DNA of 64,000 bases from Shigella phage SSG23: the sequence record PQ351811; one strand, given 5' to 3'. Of the stretch, positions 44,101-49,175 are shown in pieces. The notes under the pieces are model-generated. The model was given only the letters and a program-made list of their open reading frames with translations, did not search any database and was not told where the DNA came from. Each line of letters starts with the position of its first letter. The stretch's first letter is position 1. Made by a program: the position numbers and the translations under genes.

Positions 44101-44430
44101 ATGTGGACAGTAGAACAAATCGTAGATGAAACAGTAAGTATTATCGCATGTGGCACTATTGAAGAATGCCTTAAAGCCGCTAACCGTGAATGTATTATGG
44201 TTTATGAAGCCCGTCGCGGTGATGGTACTGTGTTAACCAGCGACTATCGATATGAACCAAAAATGATTACCTTTCGTTTTTGGGAAAATGGTGTTAATGT
44301 TGGGGTATCTCACTTAAAACGTTTTCGTGATTATTCTGACCGTTATTTCATCACACCGGATAATGGTCAAGAATTTAAGACAGCAATCACCGAAGAAAAT
44401 GTAAACGAAAACTTCTTTAAACTGATTTGA
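44101..44430 (+). CDS. hypothetical protein
   Basis: 109-aa ORF. Confidence 0.4.
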   Translation: MWTVEQIVDETVSIIACGTIEECLKAANRECIMVYEARRGDGTVLTSDYRYEPKMITFRFWENGVNVGVSHLKRFRDYSDRYFITPDNGQEFKTAITEENVNENFFKLI

Positions 44431-44444
44431 TAGGAGATTATATT

Positions 44445-45014
44445 ATGATTCAATGTGTATTTGCGATTGGTGACACTAAAATGTCAGATGAAAATTGGGC
44501 GTTTGGTTTTAAAGGTGGCTTACCGTGGGGTCGTCCAATCAAAAAGGATATGGAAAACTTCCAAATGCGCACTATGACGCGGTTTAGCGATGCTGCGGTA
44601 GTAATGGGGCGTAATACCTTTGAAAGTCTTCCTAAAGCTCTTGCAGGACGTCTTAATGTGGTTATTAGCACCGATGCCAGTAAGCCGACACCAAAAGCTA
44701 AAAACGGCGACCAGCCAGATGTGTATACTGGAATTGAATTAAAGGATCTGTTAAAAGCCCTTGAGAAAACGCAAGGTTTGGTAAGCGTTATCGGTGGACC
44801 TTCCCTGATTGAAAAAGCAGTTGAGTTTGCGGACCGTATTGTGTTAACGTATGTTCAACGTTCAGGAATCAACGATCCGTTTGAATATGATGTTGGTATC
44901 TCTAAGGAAATGATTCAGGAATTGTATTTTGACTTTGCAACAAAAGAAGAACATAATTACTTCCTTGATGATTACCTGATCAGTGAGCAAATTTTAGAAC
45001 GTAAGAAGGCGTAA
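44445..45014 (+). CDS. frd: dihydrofolate reductase
   Basis: AFGFKGGLPWG, MGRNTFESLP, VSVIGGPSL DHFR motifs; adjacent to td as in T4. Confidence 0.85.
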   Translation: MIQCVFAIGDTKMSDENWAFGFKGGLPWGRPIKKDMENFQMRTMTRFSDAAVVMGRNTFESLPKALAGRLNVVISTDASKPTPKAKNGDQPDVYTGIELKDLLKALEKTQGLVSVIGGPSLIEKAVEFADRIVLTYVQRSGINDPFEYDVGISKEMIQELYFDFATKEEHNYFLDDYLISEQILERKKA

Positions 45015-45015
45015 C

Positions 45016-45108
45016 ATGAAAATTCTGACAGATTATGAGTGTAAACATTGCGGTGAATCTTTGATGTTTGCTGGTAGTCGGTGTTTACATTGTGGGAGGG
45101 AACAATAA
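45016..45108 (+). CDS. 30-aa zinc-ribbon-like peptide
   Basis: MKILTDYECKHCGESLMFAGSRCLHCGREQ; CxxC...CxxC; stop overlaps next ATG. Confidence 0.3.
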   Translation: MKILTDYECKHCGESLMFAGSRCLHCGREQ

Positions 45109-45377
45109 TGAAAATAACCATTATTCAATTATGGTCGGCTACCAGTGAAAACTACGCAGTAGCCGTAGATTATTACGGTTTACAATATCTCTATGATGAA
45201 GCGAGCGCATCATGGCTTCCGGTGCAAGAAAATAGCGATATCTCAAGACCTGCTACTGTATTCGATCCGGGCGTTGTCTTTATCAATATTGACGAGACAG
45301 TAGCAAAACTGCGTAAGAAAGCAATCAATAAGAAAAAGGTGATGTGGGATGAAAGAATATTTGAAACTATTGCGTGA
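45108..45377 (+). CDS. hypothetical protein
   Basis: 89-aa ORF; 3' end overlaps td start. Confidence 0.35.
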   Translation: MKITIIQLWSATSENYAVAVDYYGLQYLYDEASASWLPVQENSDISRPATVFDPGVVFINIDETVAKLRKKAINKKKVMWDERIFETIA

Positions 45378-46581
45378 TGTTCTTGATAATGGCTGGCCTC
45401 GTGAAGACCGAACGGGGGTAGGTACGCTCTCTAAATTCGGCGCAGAGATGCGAATTGACTTAAGCAAGGGTTTCCCCTTACTGACAACTAAAAAGATGGC
45501 TACAGCCTCTGTAATTGGCGAGTTGCTATGGTTTATGGAAGGGTCGCTGGACCGCCGTCGCTTACAGGAAATTACACGCGGTAAATTCGATGACGAAGCC
45601 TTTGATATTTGGCGCGGTAACTGTCTTGATATGAAAGAAAAGAATCCTTTGCGATTCAACGGCTATAATGTTGGCAATATGTATGGTATGGCGTGGCGAC
45701 GCAAGCCGATTCATCCACACGGTGAAATCAAAATTAAGCGCGTTAAGAGCAAATATACACATACATTTAAGCACCCGTGGGTAGAAGACTTTACGCCAAC
45801 CAACGACACAGAAGACCGTTTATGTGCTATCTGGCGTGGTATGCGTTATGAAGAGTTTGATTCTGAATATAATCAATTCTTAGTAGCAGACCACTGGAAG
45901 ACTCAATCCAATTTTGTTAATGATGCATACTGCTTGTGGGGATTCCAGGAATGGGTAGATGATGGTTATTTCGGTTATCTGCTTGATAGTGATTATCTGG
46001 GTGGGGATATGTTCGCACCGGATACCACAATCTTTGTTAATATGGACGTAGACACATCAAGCCCTAAAGACGATGAAGAATATATCTATCGCCCGAAGAT
46101 TTGGGAAGACCAGTTACAAAACGTGATTGAACAAATTAAAAATAATCCAACGGATCGCCGGATCATTATTGACTCATGGAACGTACAAGGAACACATAAT
46201 GCTGTATTAGGTGTATGTCATCCTTTCGTGCAATTCTACGTCAATGAAGGTAAACTGTCCTGTATGTGGTTTCAGCGAAGCGTAGACAGCTTTTTGGGCT
46301 TGCCCTTTAACGTCGCCAGCTATGCGCTGTTAACTCACATCATAGCGAAAATGTGCGACCTTGAGGTTGGCGAACTGATTTTCTCCGGCGGAGATACTCA
46401 CATTTACAAAAACCACTTTGACCAAGTTATGGAGCAATTAAACCGTGTTCCGTTTGATAAACCAACAATTGAGTTGCCGGAATTTAAATCTTTAGATGAG
46501 GTATTGACAAAAACTCCGAAAGACTTTAAAATTCACAACTATCAAAGCCACCCGGCAATCACCGCTCAAATGGCAGTATAA
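45349..46581 (+). CDS. td: thymidylate synthase (ThyA family) with large internal insertion
   Basis: 410 aa; both ends collinear with E. coli ThyA/T4 Td (DRTGVGTLS, FPLLTTKK, catalytic VCHPFVQFY, LGLPFNVASYALL, GGDTHIY); about 125 aa inserted after YGMAWRR. Confidence 0.85.
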   Translation: MKEYLKLLRDVLDNGWPREDRTGVGTLSKFGAEMRIDLSKGFPLLTTKKMATASVIGELLWFMEGSLDRRRLQEITRGKFDDEAFDIWRGNCLDMKEKNPLRFNGYNVGNMYGMAWRRKPIHPHGEIKIKRVKSKYTHTFKHPWVEDFTPTNDTEDRLCAIWRGMRYEEFDSEYNQFLVADHWKTQSNFVNDAYCLWGFQEWVDDGYFGYLLDSDYLGGDMFAPDTTIFVNMDVDTSSPKDDEEYIYRPKIWEDQLQNVIEQIKNNPTDRRIIIDSWNVQGTHNAVLGVCHPFVQFYVNEGKLSCMWFQRSVDSFLGLPFNVASYALLTHIIAKMCDLEVGELIFSGGDTHIYKNHFDQVMEQLNRVPFDKPTIELPEFKSLDEVLTKTPKDFKIHNYQSHPAITAQMAV

Positions 46582-46587
46582 ACAAAT

Positions 46588-46605
46588 GCGGGGAGAAATC
46601 CCCGC
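46588..46605 (+). repeat. GC-rich stem-loop GCGGGGA-gaaa-TCCCCGC
   Basis: Same stem-loop inside promoter at 49189-49206; related copies 32930, 53189, 57904. Confidence 0.5.
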
Positions 46606-46617
46606 AAGGAGTATCAA

Positions 46618-46920
46618 ATGAAAATATGCCGCGTTGTAAACAAGTACAATAGCGATTTTGATGTTAATATTCAGCGTGGTACTATGTGGGGAAATCCATA
46701 CACCGCCAAAGAATACGGACGAGAGAAAGCTATTGCATTATACAAAGAGTGGTTGTATAATAAGATTCGAAATGGTGAGATAACACGAGCGCATTTAGAA
46801 GTATTAAGACATATGCGCTTAGGTTGTACTTGCTACCCTAAGAAATGCCACGGTGAAGTATTGGCGGATCTCGTTAATAGAGTTTTCGGCGATACTCCAG
46901 AAAATACGCTTGATATATGA
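46618..46920 (+). CDS. DUF4326-family protein with gp33-like C-terminal tail
   Basis: 100 aa; GNPYT and LGCTCYPKKCHGEVL fit DUF4326 pattern as recalled; C-terminus DTPENTLDI closely matches gp33 C-terminus DEPTNTLDI. Confidence 0.5.
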   Translation: MKICRVVNKYNSDFDVNIQRGTMWGNPYTAKEYGREKAIALYKEWLYNKIRNGEITRAHLEVLRHMRLGCTCYPKKCHGEVLADLVNRVFGDTPENTLDI

Positions 46921-46931
46921 AGTGAGGTAAT

Positions 46932-49175
46932 ATGATTAAAAATGTTGTTAAGTCTTCCGGTCTGACTGTTCCGTTTGAAAAAGAAAAAGTAATGAAAATT
47001 CTGGAAGCGGCAGCCGAAGGTCATAACGTTGATCCATATGAATTGTTTGATATGGTTGAACCGCTTCTGACAGAAGGTATGTCTACCAACGATATCCAGA
47101 AAGTATTGATTAAGGTCGCCGCAGATAACATTACTGTAGAAACACCTGATTATCAATATGTAGCAAGTAACCTTGCAATGTTCGCGCTTCGTAAATCAGT
47201 ATATGGTCAATTCCAACCGATTGATTTTTACAGCCATATTGAGCGTAATATTGCAACCGGAAAATATGATCGCGAAATTCTGCAAAAGTATTCCCGTGAA
47301 GAAGTGGAATATCTGGAGAAATTCATCGATCATAAACTTGATTTTAAAATGACCTATGCTGGTGCGATGCAGTTAAAAGAGAAATATCTTGTTCAGGATC
47401 GCAGCACTAAGAAAATCATTGAAACACCGCAATTTGCGTATATGCTGATCGGTATGTGCTTACATCAAGAAGAGACAGAAAATCGACTTGAACATGTGAT
47501 TGATTTTTATAATGCTGTTGCGAATAAGCAAATTTCTCTGCCTACTCCGATTATGGCGGGTGTGCGTACCCCGACACGACAATTTAGTTCGTGTGTGGTG
47601 ATTGAAAGTGATGACTCATTGCAGGGCATCAATGAAACAGCAAATGCAATCATCAAGTATATTAGTAAGCGTGCTGGTATCGGCATCAATGCTGGTATGA
47701 TTCGCGCGGAAGGATCTAAGATCGGGCATGGTGAAGTTCGTCATACTGGCGTTATCCCGTTCTGGAAACATTTTCAGACTGCCGTTAAGTCATGTTCACA
47801 AGGCGGTATTCGTGGCGGGGCAGCGACTCTCTATTACCCAATGTGGCATTTAGAGTTTGAAAGTCTTATTGTGTTGAAGAACAACAAAGGGGTAGAAGAT
47901 AACCGCATCCGTCATCTTGATTACGGCGTACAGATTAATAACCTGATGGTAGAGCGATTCCTTAAACGCGATTACATTACTCTGTTTAGTCCAGATGTTG
48001 CGGGTGGCTTGTTGTGGGATCTGTACTTCCGAGATGAGGAAGGATTCCGCCAGCTTTACGAAAAACTGGAAAAAGATCCGAGTGTGCGTAAAACTCGTGT
48101 TAAAGCCGAAGACCTGTTTTTAGCGGTGGCAATTGAACGTTTTAACACTGGTCGAATCTATCCAGCGTTCACAGACAACATGAACAATCACGGGGCGTTT
48201 ATTCGTAATGTAGCACCGATTAAACAATCTAACCTGTGTTGTGAAATTGCTCTGCCGACAAAACCGATGGGTCGTGATGATTCAGAGATCAGCCTATGCA
48301 CTTTGGCAGCATATGTTTTAGGTAATTTCGATATCGAAAACATGGAAGAAGTAGAACGCATTGCTATGGTTATGGTGCGTGCGCTTGACAACTTGTTAGA
48401 TTATCAGGATTATCCTGTAAAACAAGCACTGACAGCCAAAAAACGTCGCTCTCTGGGTGTTGGCGTGACTAACTTTGCATCATATCTGGCGGATAATTTC
48501 TTCACATATGAAGACGCTAACGAGTTTACGCATAAAACGTTTGAACGCTTGCAATATGCTCTGATTAAGGCTAGTGTGCAACTGGCTAAAGAGAAGGGTG
48601 CTTGCGAACTGATGCACGAAACACGTTATGGTCGCGGTGAACTTCCTATTGACTGGTACAAAAAGACAGTAGATGAACTGGTTGATCCGGTGTATGAGAT
48701 GGATTGGGAAGAACTGCGCGAAGACCTGAAAAAATATGGCATTCGTAACAGTACGCTTTCGGCGCTGATGCCTTGTGAGTCGTCTTCTCAGGTGTCTAAC
48801 AGCACAAACGGTATTGAACCGCCTCGCGGGATTGTATCGGTTAAAGGATCAAAGGAAGGACAATTTAATCAGGTTATTCCGAACGTAGAGAATAATGCTG
48901 ATGTTATTGACCTGCTTTGGACACTGATCAAGAAAGGTAACAAGCCTTATCTGACACTGGCAGCGATCATGCAGAAGTTTGTAGATCAGGCGATTAGTTC
49001 CAATACATCCTACGATCCAAGCACTTATAAGACTGGTAAAGTCGATATTGCTGATGTATTAGATGATATGTTGTTTGCTCAATATTACGGCCTCAAGACA
49101 CTGTATTACGCTAACGTGCGTGATGGTGCTGATGGTACGGAAGACGCTAGCGAATGTTCATCTTGCAAACTGTAA
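46932..49175 (+). CDS. nrdA: ribonucleotide reductase large subunit NrdA (class Ia)
   Basis: 747 aa; N-terminal ATP-cone, active-site region NLCCEI, C-terminal CxxC tail (CSSCKL). Confidence 0.9.
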   Translation: MIKNVVKSSGLTVPFEKEKVMKILEAAAEGHNVDPYELFDMVEPLLTEGMSTNDIQKVLIKVAADNITVETPDYQYVASNLAMFALRKSVYGQFQPIDFYSHIERNIATGKYDREILQKYSREEVEYLEKFIDHKLDFKMTYAGAMQLKEKYLVQDRSTKKIIETPQFAYMLIGMCLHQEETENRLEHVIDFYNAVANKQISLPTPIMAGVRTPTRQFSSCVVIESDDSLQGINETANAIIKYISKRAGIGINAGMIRAEGSKIGHGEVRHTGVIPFWKHFQTAVKSCSQGGIRGGAATLYYPMWHLEFESLIVLKNNKGVEDNRIRHLDYGVQINNLMVERFLKRDYITLFSPDVAGGLLWDLYFRDEEGFRQLYEKLEKDPSVRKTRVKAEDLFLAVAIERFNTGRIYPAFTDNMNNHGAFIRNVAPIKQSNLCCEIALPTKPMGRDDSEISLCTLAAYVLGNFDIENMEEVERIAMVMVRALDNLLDYQDYPVKQALTAKKRRSLGVGVTNFASYLADNFFTYEDANEFTHKTFERLQYALIKASVQLAKEKGACELMHETRYGRGELPIDWYKKTVDELVDPVYEMDWEELREDLKKYGIRNSTLSALMPCESSSQVSNSTNGIEPPRGIVSVKGSKEGQFNQVIPNVENNADVIDLLWTLIKKGNKPYLTLAAIMQKFVDQAISSNTSYDPSTYKTGKVDIADVLDDMLFAQYYGLKTLYYANVRDGADGTEDASECSSCKL

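What the first reader, a model, noticed from the sequence alone, without database searches (positions are those of the whole stretch)
45727..46107. Thymidylate synthase with a roughly 125-aa in-frame insertion and no intron
The td product (410 aa) is collinear with canonical ThyA at both ends, including the catalytic Cys in VCHPF. It carries an insertion of about 125 aa after YGMAWRR, corresponding to the short variable loop before the DRR(I/Q)I segment of E. coli and T4 enzymes. The insert is rich in aromatic and acidic residues (WVEDF, DHWKTQSNF, CLWGFQEWVDDGYFGYLLDSDYLGG). It is not an intron because the frame is continuous, and it does not look like an intein. It may be a novel accessory domain, for example mediating interaction with the dNTP-synthetase complex or altering substrate specificity.
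Basis: partly seen in the sequence, partly recalled or inferred. Interest (0 to 1): 0.6.

Follow-up and report, generated by a model that had tools for sequence, protein, structure and literature searches.

The report
Decayed homing-endonuclease domain inside thymidylate synthase
The extra 125-135 amino acids in this phage's thymidylate synthase are a worn-down, in-frame copy of a selfish homing-endonuclease-like gene that stays in the finished enzyme as a folded surface domain, a way of living inside an essential gene that needs neither an intron nor an intein.

Summary
The window is Shigella phage SFHK24, an RB49-like Krischvirus. Its td ORF (45349-46581, 410 aa) is a complete ThyA with every catalytic residue. 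A 136-aa segment (aa 118-253, nt 45700-46107) replaces the 9-residue hairpin 101-109 of E. coli ThyA.

The insert is not an intron, an intein or a known ThyA elaboration. It is homologous to longer inserts (190-285 aa) at the same site in other phage ThyAs. Those longer inserts match the atypical HNH module of free-standing "IPA-HNH" homing-endonuclease genes (ICP1 gp59 family).

- **Long inserts:** they keep that family's whole invariant signature, including L-D-K-D, Y, C and N.
- **Window insert:** it has lost the signature (L-D-S-D), the N-terminal beta part and the C-terminal DNA-binding part. It is strongly acidic.
- **Still a domain:** it folds confidently (pLDDT about 94) and is under purifying selection (dN/dS about 0.2).
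- **Mobility elsewhere:** in two jumbo-phage genera, sister phages differ by presence or absence of the insert, within a mosaic tract centred on it.

Best reading: a fossil of an in-frame, non-splicing homing-endonuclease insertion, now a passenger or possibly co-opted domain. This is a new variant of a known kind, and I found no description of it in the literature searched.

The parts
45349..46581 (+). td (thyA) ORF, 410 aa plus stop codon. It is a complete thymidylate synthase carrying an internal insert.
   Evidence: ORF list. PF00303 at E 2e-84 in two stretches. PDB ThyA matches to aa 1-75 and 254-410. 100% identical to Shigella phage SFHK24 td and about 95% to RB49 td.
45349..45699 (+). 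N-terminal ThyA core, aa 1-117. The last 27 aa (aa 91-117, NCLDMKEKNPLRFNGYNVGNMYGMAWR) form a flank signature linked to the insert.
   Evidence: Segment aa 91-117 is 68% identical to long-insert ThyAs but only 31% to insertless ThyAs. The other segments give ratios of 0.8-1.1.
45700..46107 (+). The insert, aa 118-253 (136 aa). It replaces the E. coli hairpin 101-109.
   Evidence: Alignments A1 and A2. BLASTP to the Klebsiella jumbo-phage ThyA insert gives 32% identity, E 3e-19. hhalign of the short-insert profile against the free-standing IPA-HNH profile gives probability 93.4%, E 2.6e-7. AF2 pLDDT is about 94 both alone and in context.
45700..45738 (+). Ascending strand of a long two-stranded beta-ribbon (aa 118-130). 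It extends the native hairpin and lifts the inserted domain off the core.
   Evidence: DSSP on the AF2 model: E118-130 is presumed to pair with E245-254. The 'P.PHG....R' motif is conserved in all insert-bearing ThyAs.
45805..45960 (+). Helical module (aa 153-204). It contains the conserved W162, W183, F189 and W197, equivalent to the 'Y..W..M..RCY ... C..W..F.NF' part of IPA-HNH proteins. R and Y of 'RCY' are lost here (E, F).
   Evidence: AF2 helices 153-170, 181-184, 186-193 and 199-204. Signature-column table. hhalign aligned columns.
45976..46041 (+). Degenerate beta-hairpin, YLLDSDYLGGDMFAPDTTIFVN (aa 210-231). It is the remnant of the 'LDKD..GN.YSP.TC.FVP..N' putative HNH-like core. K became S (LDSD at nt 45982-45993), Y became F, C became T and N became D.
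   Evidence: Strands E210-213 and E228-231. Every free-standing member and every insert of 190 aa or more except P0020 keeps D-K-D and Y; most also keep C and N; the window does not.
46081..46107 (+). Descending strand of the beta-ribbon (aa 245-253, EYIYRPKIW), returning to the DQL helix of the core.
   Evidence: E245-254 in the AF2 model. The 'V.RP.I..DQL' junction motif is shared by all insert-bearing ThyAs, including P0024 and P0025, which sit in a different ThyA background.
46108..46578 (+). C-terminal ThyA core (aa 254-410), with R270/R271, the catalytic Cys290 (nt 46216-46218), H291, R310, S311, D313, N321, H351 and Y353.
44427..45014 (+). frd (dihydrofolate reductase), the upstream neighbour. 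Context only.
   Evidence: PF00186 at E 2e-20.
46932..49175 (+). nrdA (ribonucleotide reductase large subunit), downstream. A DUF4326 ORF at 46618-46920 lies in between. Context only.
   Evidence: ORF list. DUF4326 at E 6.5e-23. The nrdA identity rests on my reading of the translation; the adjacent frd-td order is also seen on the phage-like contig L011.

Best explanation
**What it is.** The insert is the decayed remnant of a homing-endonuclease-like gene of the IPA-HNH type. That family consists of atypical HNH modules normally found as free-standing phage ORFs carrying a C-terminal AP2 domain. A copy became inserted in frame at the tip of a surface beta-hairpin of a phage thymidylate synthase.

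**How it behaves in the protein.** It is not removed at the RNA or protein level. It is translated as part of Td and stays in the mature enzyme as an independently folded domain. A two-stranded beta-ribbon holds it away from the catalytic core, so the enzyme can still make dTMP.

**Long forms elsewhere.** In other phages, such as the Alcyoneusvirus and Asteriusvirus jumbo phages, and in many metagenomic phages, the element is full length and keeps the family's invariant residues. In those phages it shows presence/absence polymorphism within mosaic tracts, which suggests recent or current mobility.

**The Krischvirus form.** In the lineage represented by this window the element has lost four things:
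- the N-terminal beta part;
- the C-terminal DNA-binding part;
- the conserved D-K-D/Y/C/N residues;
- its neutral-to-basic charge.

It is therefore very probably no longer a nuclease or a DNA binder.

**Why it persists.** It cannot easily be excised without breaking an important enzyme. Its hydrophobic core is kept by purifying selection because a misfolding insert would damage Td.

**Shown versus inferred.** Shown here: the homology chain, the loss of signature residues, the confident separate fold, purifying selection, and the polymorphism and mosaicism in relatives. Inferred: the absence of splicing, the retention of TS activity, the loss of nuclease activity, and a homing mechanism for the ancestral spread.
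For: **1. Same-site inserts of graded length.** About 30 clusters at 90% identity carry an insert of about 125, 145, 195, 245 or 285 aa at this site. At least 16 clusters at 50% identity are confirmed ThyAs with the insert.

**2. Long inserts match homing-endonuclease families.** They hit PHROG 'HNH endonuclease' families: phrog_2081 at E 1.7e-33, and phrog_953 and phrog_374. By tblastn they hit 1435 phage records, mostly free-standing ORFs. Examples lie next to the primase and DNA polymerase genes (L001), between nrdA and nrdB (L002), and at ICP1 ORF59. ICP1 gp59 is a founding member of the IPA-HNH homing-endonuclease genes (PMC10448857). hhalign of gp59 against the insert profile (which also contains two free-standing members) gives probability 99.4%, E 1.8e-21. 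Free-standing relatives carry weak AP2 hits at the C-terminus.

**3. The window insert is tied into this chain.**
- BLASTP to the P0012 insert: 32% identity over 124 aa, E 3e-19.
- tblastn of that insert hits Krischvirus td at E 8e-12 in a 2.3-Gb database.
- Short-insert profile against free-standing profile: probability 93.4%, E 2.6e-7.
- BFVD Foldseek with the insert model returns long phage ThyAs plus free-standing proteins annotated 'HNH homing endonuclease'.

**4. Decay.** The signature columns read W R Y Y W F W L D K D Y C N in free-standing members and in most long-insert ThyAs. In the window they read W E F Y W F W L D S D F T D. The module's net charge is -14, against about -5 to +8 in the others.

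**5. Still a real domain.** pLDDT is 93.3 in context (pTM 0.91) and 93.7 alone. dN/dS is 0.20 across 8 Krischvirus genes.

**6. Mobility of the long form.**
- KP13-7 (517 aa) and Muenster (309 aa) are in the same genus and carry thyA at the same locus. Their flanks are 92-100% identical in nucleotides, but a central tract of about 1 kb (insert plus adjoining td coding) is only 50-60% identical.
- The same pattern is seen for ph0011 against CMSTMSU.
- The insert also occurs in a second ThyA background, P0024 and P0025.
- In the window, the 27 aa upstream of the insert are linked to insert presence.

**7. Not an intron or an intein**.
Against: - **Weak direct detection.** The window's insert is too diverged for direct profile-sequence detection. 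PHROG gives only E 0.1. An HMM of the free-standing family finds nothing in the window. Homology therefore rests on intermediates and a profile-profile match.
- **No biochemistry.** No nuclease activity has been shown for any IPA-HNH protein in the papers I read.
- **Mosaicism has another explanation.** It could arise from ordinary recombination between diverged td alleles without any endonuclease.
- **Selection may point to function.** dN/dS of 0.2, retention in all 58 Krischvirus records and in relatives only 50-60% identical, and the marked acidification could mean a new, selected function rather than a passive fossil.
- **Untested assumptions.** Absence of splicing and presence of TS activity are inferred, not measured.
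Confidence: 0.7

Rival explanations
1. Co-opted accessory domain. The origin is the same (a homing-endonuclease-derived insert), but in Krischviruses it now has a selected function. That function could be a protein-protein contact, for example within the dNTP-synthesising complex or with DHFR, or it could be regulation or mimicry through its acidic surface.
For: - Purifying selection, dN/dS 0.20.
- Retention in all 58 Krischvirus records and in relatives only 50-60% identical (P0003-P0006).
- Independent reduction to a similar 125-145-aa core in two ThyA branches, the Krischvirus-like branch and P0009/P0013.
- A shift of module net charge to -14.
- High pTM of 0.91 for the whole protein, which suggests a fixed orientation.
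Against: - No partner, motif or family assignment points to any particular function.
- Purifying selection on a buried core is expected for any inserted domain whose misfolding would harm the host enzyme.
- dN/dS is four times higher than in the N-terminal core, 0.20 against 0.05.
- A 4-aa indel polymorphism exists inside the insert.
Confidence: 0.2
2. The window's insert is still an active homing endonuclease. It cuts insertless td alleles of co-infecting phages and so drives its own spread.
For: - It belongs by descent to a family regarded as homing-endonuclease genes (PMC10448857).
- The td C-terminal core of Krischviruses shows a recombinant patch that begins at the insert's 3' junction.
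Against: - The family's invariant R, Y, K (of D-K-D), Y, C and N are all replaced.
- Both flanking DNA-binding parts are missing.
- The net charge is -11 to -14.
- No insertless Krischvirus td was found that could serve as a target.
Confidence: 0.04
3. A lineage-specific elaboration of ThyA that has nothing to do with mobile elements. On this view the similarity to homing-endonuclease-like proteins is convergent or spurious.
For: - Direct searches with the window insert alone give nothing significant.
- ThyA is known to tolerate lineage-specific surface insertions, such as the L. casei small domain and the eukaryotic inserts (my own knowledge).
Against: - There is a continuous chain of significant matches: E 3e-19 to the long insert; E 1.7e-33 from the long insert to the PHROG HNH family; probability 93-99% in profile-profile comparisons.
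- The signature residues are identical in long inserts and in free-standing genes.
- Structure-based hits go to the same families.
Confidence: 0.04
4. An unrecognised intein, or an intron read through by chance, so that the mature enzyme lacks the segment.
For: The element sits in a conserved region of a nucleotide-metabolism gene, as inteins and the T4 td intron do. Its size is similar to a mini-intein.
Against: - The junction residues are wrong: the N-junction reads R-K-P, and the C-junction reads ...KIWE followed by D.
- There are no Hint/intein Pfam hits at E<=1 or E<=10.
- There is no Rfam intron.
- The ORF is continuous and under purifying selection at the protein level.
- The insert is predicted to fold as a domain continuous with the host hairpin.
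Confidence: 0.02

Closest known systems
IPA-HNH homing endonuclease genes (ICP1 gp59, gp115-116, gp209 family; Barth, Dunham and Seed 2023, PMC10448857)
   Same: The central module is homologous: helices with the W..M..RCY / C..W..F.NF motifs, followed by an 'LDKD ... YSP.TC.FVP..N' hairpin. Long ThyA inserts keep every invariant residue of the family. Like those genes, the element is associated with essential nucleotide-metabolism and replication genes.
   Different: IPA-HNH genes are free-standing ORFs with a C-terminal AP2 domain. Here the module is fused in frame inside the host enzyme and has no AP2 (none was detected in the long ThyA inserts either). In the window it has also lost the signature residues and the N-terminal beta part.
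Inteins
   Same: Both are in-frame insertions in a conserved enzyme of nucleotide metabolism. Both derive from or carry a homing-endonuclease module. Both are distributed sporadically among related genomes.
   Different: There is no Hint splicing domain and no splice-junction residues. The insert is predicted to remain in the mature protein.
ShiLan domain of mycobacteriophage DNA methylases (Arsenault, Gosselin and Gogarten 2025, PMC11855218)
   Same: It is also a non-splicing insertion that reads through in frame with its host gene. It is also predicted to loop out of the host protein, it is linked to an HNH endonuclease, and it has a homing-like distribution.
   Different: In ShiLan the HNH is encoded in a different reading frame, hidden inside the insertion, and the in-frame product is only a hairpin-like loop. 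Here the endonuclease-like module itself is in the host's frame and forms a folded domain. The host gene and the HNH subfamily also differ.
T4 td group I intron with I-TevI
   Same: The host gene (td) is the same, and the general logic is the same: a selfish endonuclease element lodged in a conserved phage gene, with co-conversion of flanks.
   Different: In T4 an RNA intron is spliced out, the endonuclease is of the GIY-YIG type, and (from my own knowledge) the intron sits at a different position in td. Here there is no intron.
Lineage-specific ThyA insertions (the Lactobacillus casei 50-residue small-domain insert, and the eukaryotic ThyA inserts)
   Same: These are also surface insertions that ThyA tolerates without loss of catalysis. 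The second eukaryotic insert lies in the same loop after the WR motif (my own knowledge).
   Different: They are much shorter, they are not independent domains, and they have no relation to mobile-element proteins. The L. casei insert lies at another site, upstream of DLGxVYG.

Membership tests
Thymidylate synthase ThyA (PF00303) | Full-length match to the family profile at both ends | tested here: met
   PF00303 at E 2e-84, 283 bits against a cutoff of 24.3. E. coli ThyA aligns to aa 1-75 and 254-410.
Thymidylate synthase ThyA (PF00303) | Catalytic and substrate-binding residues. In E. coli numbering: R21, E58, W80, R126', R127', C146, H147, R166, S167, D169, N177, H207, Y209. | tested here: met
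   All are present in the window protein. Most are invariant in 49 aligned ThyAs, 25 of which carry an insert. Enzyme activity itself was not testable.
Intein | Cys/Ser/Ala at the N-junction, His-Asn at the C-terminus of the insert, and Cys/Ser/Thr as the first downstream residue | tested here: not met
   The junctions read ...AWR|RKPIHPHG... and ...RPKIWE|DQLQ.
Intein | Hint (splicing) domain | tested here: not met
   No Pfam hit other than PF00303 on the whole protein at E<=1, nor on the isolated inserts at E<=10.
Group I/II intron | An interrupted reading frame together with a ribozyme structure | tested here: not met
   A continuous 410-codon ORF. No Rfam family at E<=1 in 45000-47000. Codon-level purifying selection in the insert.
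IPA-HNH homing endonuclease genes | Sequence homology to the atypical N-terminal HNH-like module | tested here: met
   Short-insert profile against free-standing profile: probability 93.4%, E 2.6e-7. Also supported through the long inserts. Direct HMM and PHROG searches with the window insert alone are not significant.
IPA-HNH homing endonuclease genes | The family's invariant residues: R, Y, Y, D-K-D, Y, C, N | tested here: not met
   The window reads E, F, Y, D-S-D, F, T, D. Most long-insert ThyAs and all 16 free-standing members keep them.
IPA-HNH homing endonuclease genes | C-terminal AP2 DNA-binding domain | tested here: not met
   No AP2 hit in the window insert or in the long ThyA inserts. 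Weak AP2 hits occur in free-standing relatives.
IPA-HNH homing endonuclease genes | A free-standing ORF next to essential genes | tested here: not met
   The module lies in frame inside td. Free-standing examples are L001 and L002.
IPA-HNH homing endonuclease genes | Site-specific DNA cleavage and homing | not testable with these tools
   Only indirect evidence exists: presence/absence polymorphism and mosaic tracts for the long form.
HNH / His-Me finger superfamily | A beta-beta-alpha-metal fold with a catalytic His | tested here: inconclusive

The most novel reading that the evidence does not exclude
The ThyA inserts may represent a third lifestyle for homing endonucleases inside essential genes, alongside introns and inteins. 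The endonuclease would be inserted in frame at a tolerant surface hairpin and never removed. It would work, and spread, as a permanent domain of the host enzyme. The obligate ThyA dimer might even supply the two nuclease heads needed for a double-strand break.

On this reading, the long forms in jumbo phages are currently mobile. The Krischvirus insert in this window is the degenerate stage of the homing cycle. It is trapped because it cannot be excised cleanly, and it may since have been co-opted as an acidic interaction surface.
Probability: 0.35. Interest if true: 0.8.

Novelty: new variant of a known kind. Interest (0 to 1): 0.62.

Why it matters
Selfish endonuclease genes are thought to survive inside essential genes only if they are spliced out, as introns or inteins, or if they sit between genes. 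These ThyA inserts suggest a further solution: staying in the protein as a tolerated surface domain.

- **A natural series.** The inserts run from seemingly intact elements in jumbo phages, through intermediate forms, to the stripped-down fossil in RB49-like phages. That makes the invasion-degeneration-domestication cycle directly testable in well-studied coliphages.
- **Evolution of the ThyA family.** The results explain a whole divergent ThyA subfamily, whose flank signature travels with the insert.
- **Annotation.** Several of these proteins are labelled 'hypothetical protein'.
- **Protein engineering.** The hairpin is a permissive site for inserting domains of 125-285 aa into ThyA.

Tried and rejected
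**Searches that found nothing or were unavailable**
- The word-indexed protein search with the insert alone found no candidates. This is a sensitivity limit of the index, not evidence of absence.
- Pfam on the isolated inserts gave no meaningful hits.
- The insert profile against PDB sequences gave nothing at E<=10.
- Foldseek against the PDB gave nothing.
- The AlphaFold DB library was not available.
- An HMM built from free-standing IPA-HNH proteins found nothing in any ORF of the 64-kb window. It did not detect td, and the window contains no free-standing copy.
- Rfam found no intron or other RNA family.

**Hypotheses considered and rejected**
- **Hidden out-of-frame ORF, as in ShiLan.** There is no alternative + strand ORF of 50 aa or more inside the insert. 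The in-frame product itself carries the homology.
- **CasPR (CapR+AP2) anti-CRISPR repressors as relatives.** These have a different domain set and are not the same family.

**Literature**
- Five searches found no description of the ThyA insert.
- The RB49 genome paper is not held.

**Limitation**
- The model coordinates could not be read, so contacts between the insert and the active site or dimer interface were not measured.
Full report

The td region is 100% identical to Shigella phage SFHK24 and about 95% identical to RB49 and other Krischvirus (T4-type) phages. The local gene order is frd (DHFR, 44427-45014), a 98-aa ORF, td (45349-46581), a DUF4326 ORF (46618-46920), and nrdA (46932-49175).

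The td ORF encodes 410 aa. Pfam's thymidylate synthase model matches it at E 2e-84, but in two stretches. E. coli ThyA structures align to aa 1-75 and 254-410.

Alignment with other ThyAs places the extra segment directly after YGMAWR, at aa 118-253 (nt 45700-46107). It takes the place of the 9-residue hairpin W101-I109 of the E. coli enzyme.

All catalytic and substrate-binding residues are present. Most are invariant across 49 aligned ThyAs with and without inserts. The insert is aromatic-rich (17.6% FWY) and acidic (19.1% D+E, net charge -11).

**What it is not**

- **Not an intron.** The frame is continuous, the insert evolves under codon-level purifying selection, and Rfam finds nothing between 45000 and 47000.
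- **Not an intein.** The junctions read AWR|RKPIHPHG and RPKIWE|DQLQ, and there is no Hint domain.
- **Not a described ThyA feature.** None of 124 PDB ThyA sequences covers it. A profile of the inserts matches no PDB sequence. Five literature searches found no description.

**A family of ThyAs with inserts at the same site**

A database search with the whole protein found about 25 clusters of long ThyAs, 401-613 aa. A second search added five more. All are interrupted at the same position, with inserts of about 125-145, 195, 245 or 265-285 aa.

An exhaustive search of 1.84 billion representative proteins, using a profile built only from the short inserts, returned 54 hits at E<=1e-3. Of 20 longer hits that I scanned, 14 are ThyAs with a split Pfam match. 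The remainder are proteins of 175-290 aa and a few unassigned longer proteins.

All insert-bearing ThyAs share two junction motifs: 'P.PHG....R' on the way in and 'V.RP.I..DQL' on the way out. In the structure model these form a long two-stranded beta-ribbon.

**Origin of the insert**

The long inserts match PHROG families annotated as HNH endonuclease: phrog_2081 at E 1.7e-33, plus phrog_953 and phrog_374. By tblastn they hit 1435 phage records. Nearly all of those hits are small free-standing ORFs in typical homing-endonuclease positions. Examples:
- next to the primase and DNA polymerase genes in Vibrio phage 70E34-1b;
- between nrdA and nrdB in phage ETEC-TG;
- next to the DNA polymerase gene in Vibrio phage ICP1, as ORF59.

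ICP1 gp59 is one of the founding members of the 'IPA-HNH' homing endonuclease genes. This is an atypical HNH module associated with a C-terminal AP2 domain, recognisable only by HMM-HMM comparison (PMC10448857). gp59 matches the insert profile, which also contains two free-standing members, at probability 99.4%, E 1.8e-21. Free-standing relatives recovered here show weak AP2 hits at their C-termini.

**How the window's own insert connects to this family**

- BLASTP to the Klebsiella jumbo-phage insert gives 32% identity over 124 aa, E 3e-19.
- tblastn of that insert finds Krischvirus td at E 8e-12.
- A profile built only from short inserts matches a profile built only from free-standing proteins at probability 93.4%, E 2.6e-7.
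- Foldseek against viral models, using the insert-only structure model, returns long phage ThyAs and free-standing proteins named HNH or HTH homing endonuclease.

The direct evidence is weaker, and I state it plainly:
- The window insert alone scores only E 0.1 against PHROGs.
- It is invisible to an HMM of the free-standing family.
- Foldseek against the PDB finds nothing.
- The family has Lys where canonical HNH enzymes have the catalytic His, and it has no Pfam HNH hit.

I therefore treat 'HNH' as the published assignment, not as something shown here.

**Intact versus decayed copies**

At the columns that are invariant in the free-standing family, the residues read W R Y Y W F W L-D-K-D Y C N. 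Every ThyA insert of 190 aa or more except P0020 keeps R and the D-K-D/Y core, and most keep the full pattern. The window reads W E F Y W F W L-D-S-D F T D.

Only the hydrophobic core residues survive in the window. The polar residues, which are presumably the functional ones, are gone.

The window insert also lacks three parts that the long forms have:
- the N-terminal beta-rich part;
- the GVGYLG motif;
- the C-terminal beta-beta-helix segment.

The net charge of the shared module is -14 in the window. It is about -5 to +8 in the long and free-standing forms. This is not what a DNA-binding nuclease looks like.

The insert is nevertheless a real domain:
- AlphaFold2 predicts it at pLDDT 93.3 in context (pTM 0.91) and 93.7 alone. 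It consists of a beta-ribbon (118-130 and 245-254), four helices (153-204) and a beta-hairpin (210-213 and 228-231).
- Across eight Krischvirus td genes, dN/dS in the insert is 0.20. It is 0.05 in the N-terminal core and 0.19 in the recombinant C-terminal core.

A similar reduction to about 145 aa has occurred separately in another ThyA branch, P0009 and P0013.

**Signs that the long form moves**

Klebsiella phages KP13-7 and Muenster belong to the same genus, Alcyoneusvirus, and carry thyA at the same locus. KP13-7 has the 517-aa form and Muenster has a 309-aa insertless form.

Their nucleotide identity follows a clear pattern along the gene:
- 92-100% in the flanking DNA and at the start of thyA;
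- 50-60% over a central tract of about 1 kb, comprising the insert, roughly 100 nt of td coding upstream and about 230 nt downstream;
- back to about 90% near the 3' end.

The Asteriusvirus pair ph0011 (546 aa) and CMSTMSU (insertless) shows the same pattern.

In a quick neighbour-joining tree of ThyA cores, two insert-bearing proteins (P0024 and P0025) nest separately among insertless ThyAs. They still share the same exit junction motif.

In the window protein, the 27 residues just upstream of the insert are 68% identical to long-insert ThyAs but only 31% identical to insertless ones. Every other segment shows no such bias.

Together these results indicate a cassette, made of the insert plus adjoining coding sequence, that has been transferred between td genes. 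Endonuclease-driven homing with co-conversion would produce this pattern. Ordinary recombination between diverged alleles is not excluded.

**Interpretation**

The most likely account is as follows. An IPA-HNH-type homing-endonuclease gene entered a phage td gene in frame at the tip of a surface hairpin, where the protein tolerates it. It spread among phage td genes as a cassette. In the Krischvirus lineage it lost its DNA-binding parts and conserved polar residues, leaving a compact acidic domain.

That domain remains for two reasons. A clean excision is improbable, and a misfolding insert would damage the enzyme.

**Closest precedent**

The closest published precedent I found is the ShiLan domain of mycobacteriophage methylases. 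It is also a non-splicing, read-through insertion with a homing-like distribution. However, its HNH endonuclease is encoded in another reading frame (PMC11855218).

**Verdict**

The functional guess is unsupported. The origin is identifiable and unusual. I rate it a new variant of a known kind, with moderately high interest.

Noticed in passing
window 46108-46400 (td aa 254-350), compared with loci L005-L008: Krischvirus td genes are mosaic. JSE, GEC-3S and KFS-EC carry a highly diverged patch that starts at the insert's 3' junction and runs to about aa 350. Across the C-terminal core (aa 254-410) dS is about 1.0, against 0.1-0.35 upstream of it. GoldenSnicker has a shorter patch, from about aa 251 to 280. 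The shared left boundary at the insert junction may mark recombination with alleles that differ at the insert.
   Followed up: partly
window 45862-45873 (td aa 172-175): There is a 4-aa indel polymorphism inside the insert. SEYN is present in SFHK24, RB49, KFS-EC and Makalu_003. It is absent in JSE, GEC-3S, GoldenSnicker and G37-3. It falls in the lowest-pLDDT block of the model.
   Followed up: no
window 45081-45377: A 98-aa ORF lies between frd and td and overlaps the td start by 29 nt. It is annotated as a hypothetical protein (RB49ORF236c) in relatives and has no Pfam match.
   Followed up: no
window 46618-46920: A 100-aa DUF4326 protein (E 6.5e-23) is encoded between td and nrdA.
   Followed up: no
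L014 (Escherichia phage CMSTMSU thyA) and L015 (phage ph0011 thyA); also Klebsiella phage phiKp_21: Annotation problems in public records:
- The insertless CMSTMSU thyA is split into two CDS, apparently by a frameshift.
- The 546-aa ph0011 ThyA is labelled 'hypothetical protein'.
- The 517-aa phiKp_21 ThyA is also labelled 'hypothetical protein'.
   Followed up: no
proteins P0157 (661 aa), P0176 (724 aa), P0187 (568 aa), P0158, P0160, P0171, P0174; and P0159, P0184, P0188, P0198 (4600-5500 aa): The short-insert profile also hits several longer proteins, seven of which have no Pfam family, and four giant proteins. The giant hits cover only short stretches of the profile and may be spurious. The others could be further host proteins or multidomain endonucleases carrying the same module.
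   Followed up: partly
free-standing relatives P0126-P0148, L001 1504-2028, L002 1519-2175, L012 2420-3238: The whole IPA-HNH family has an invariant L-D-K-D, with Lys where canonical HNH enzymes have the general-base His. It has no Pfam HNH match. Whether these widespread 'HNH endonuclease' annotations denote real nucleases appears untested.
   Followed up: partly
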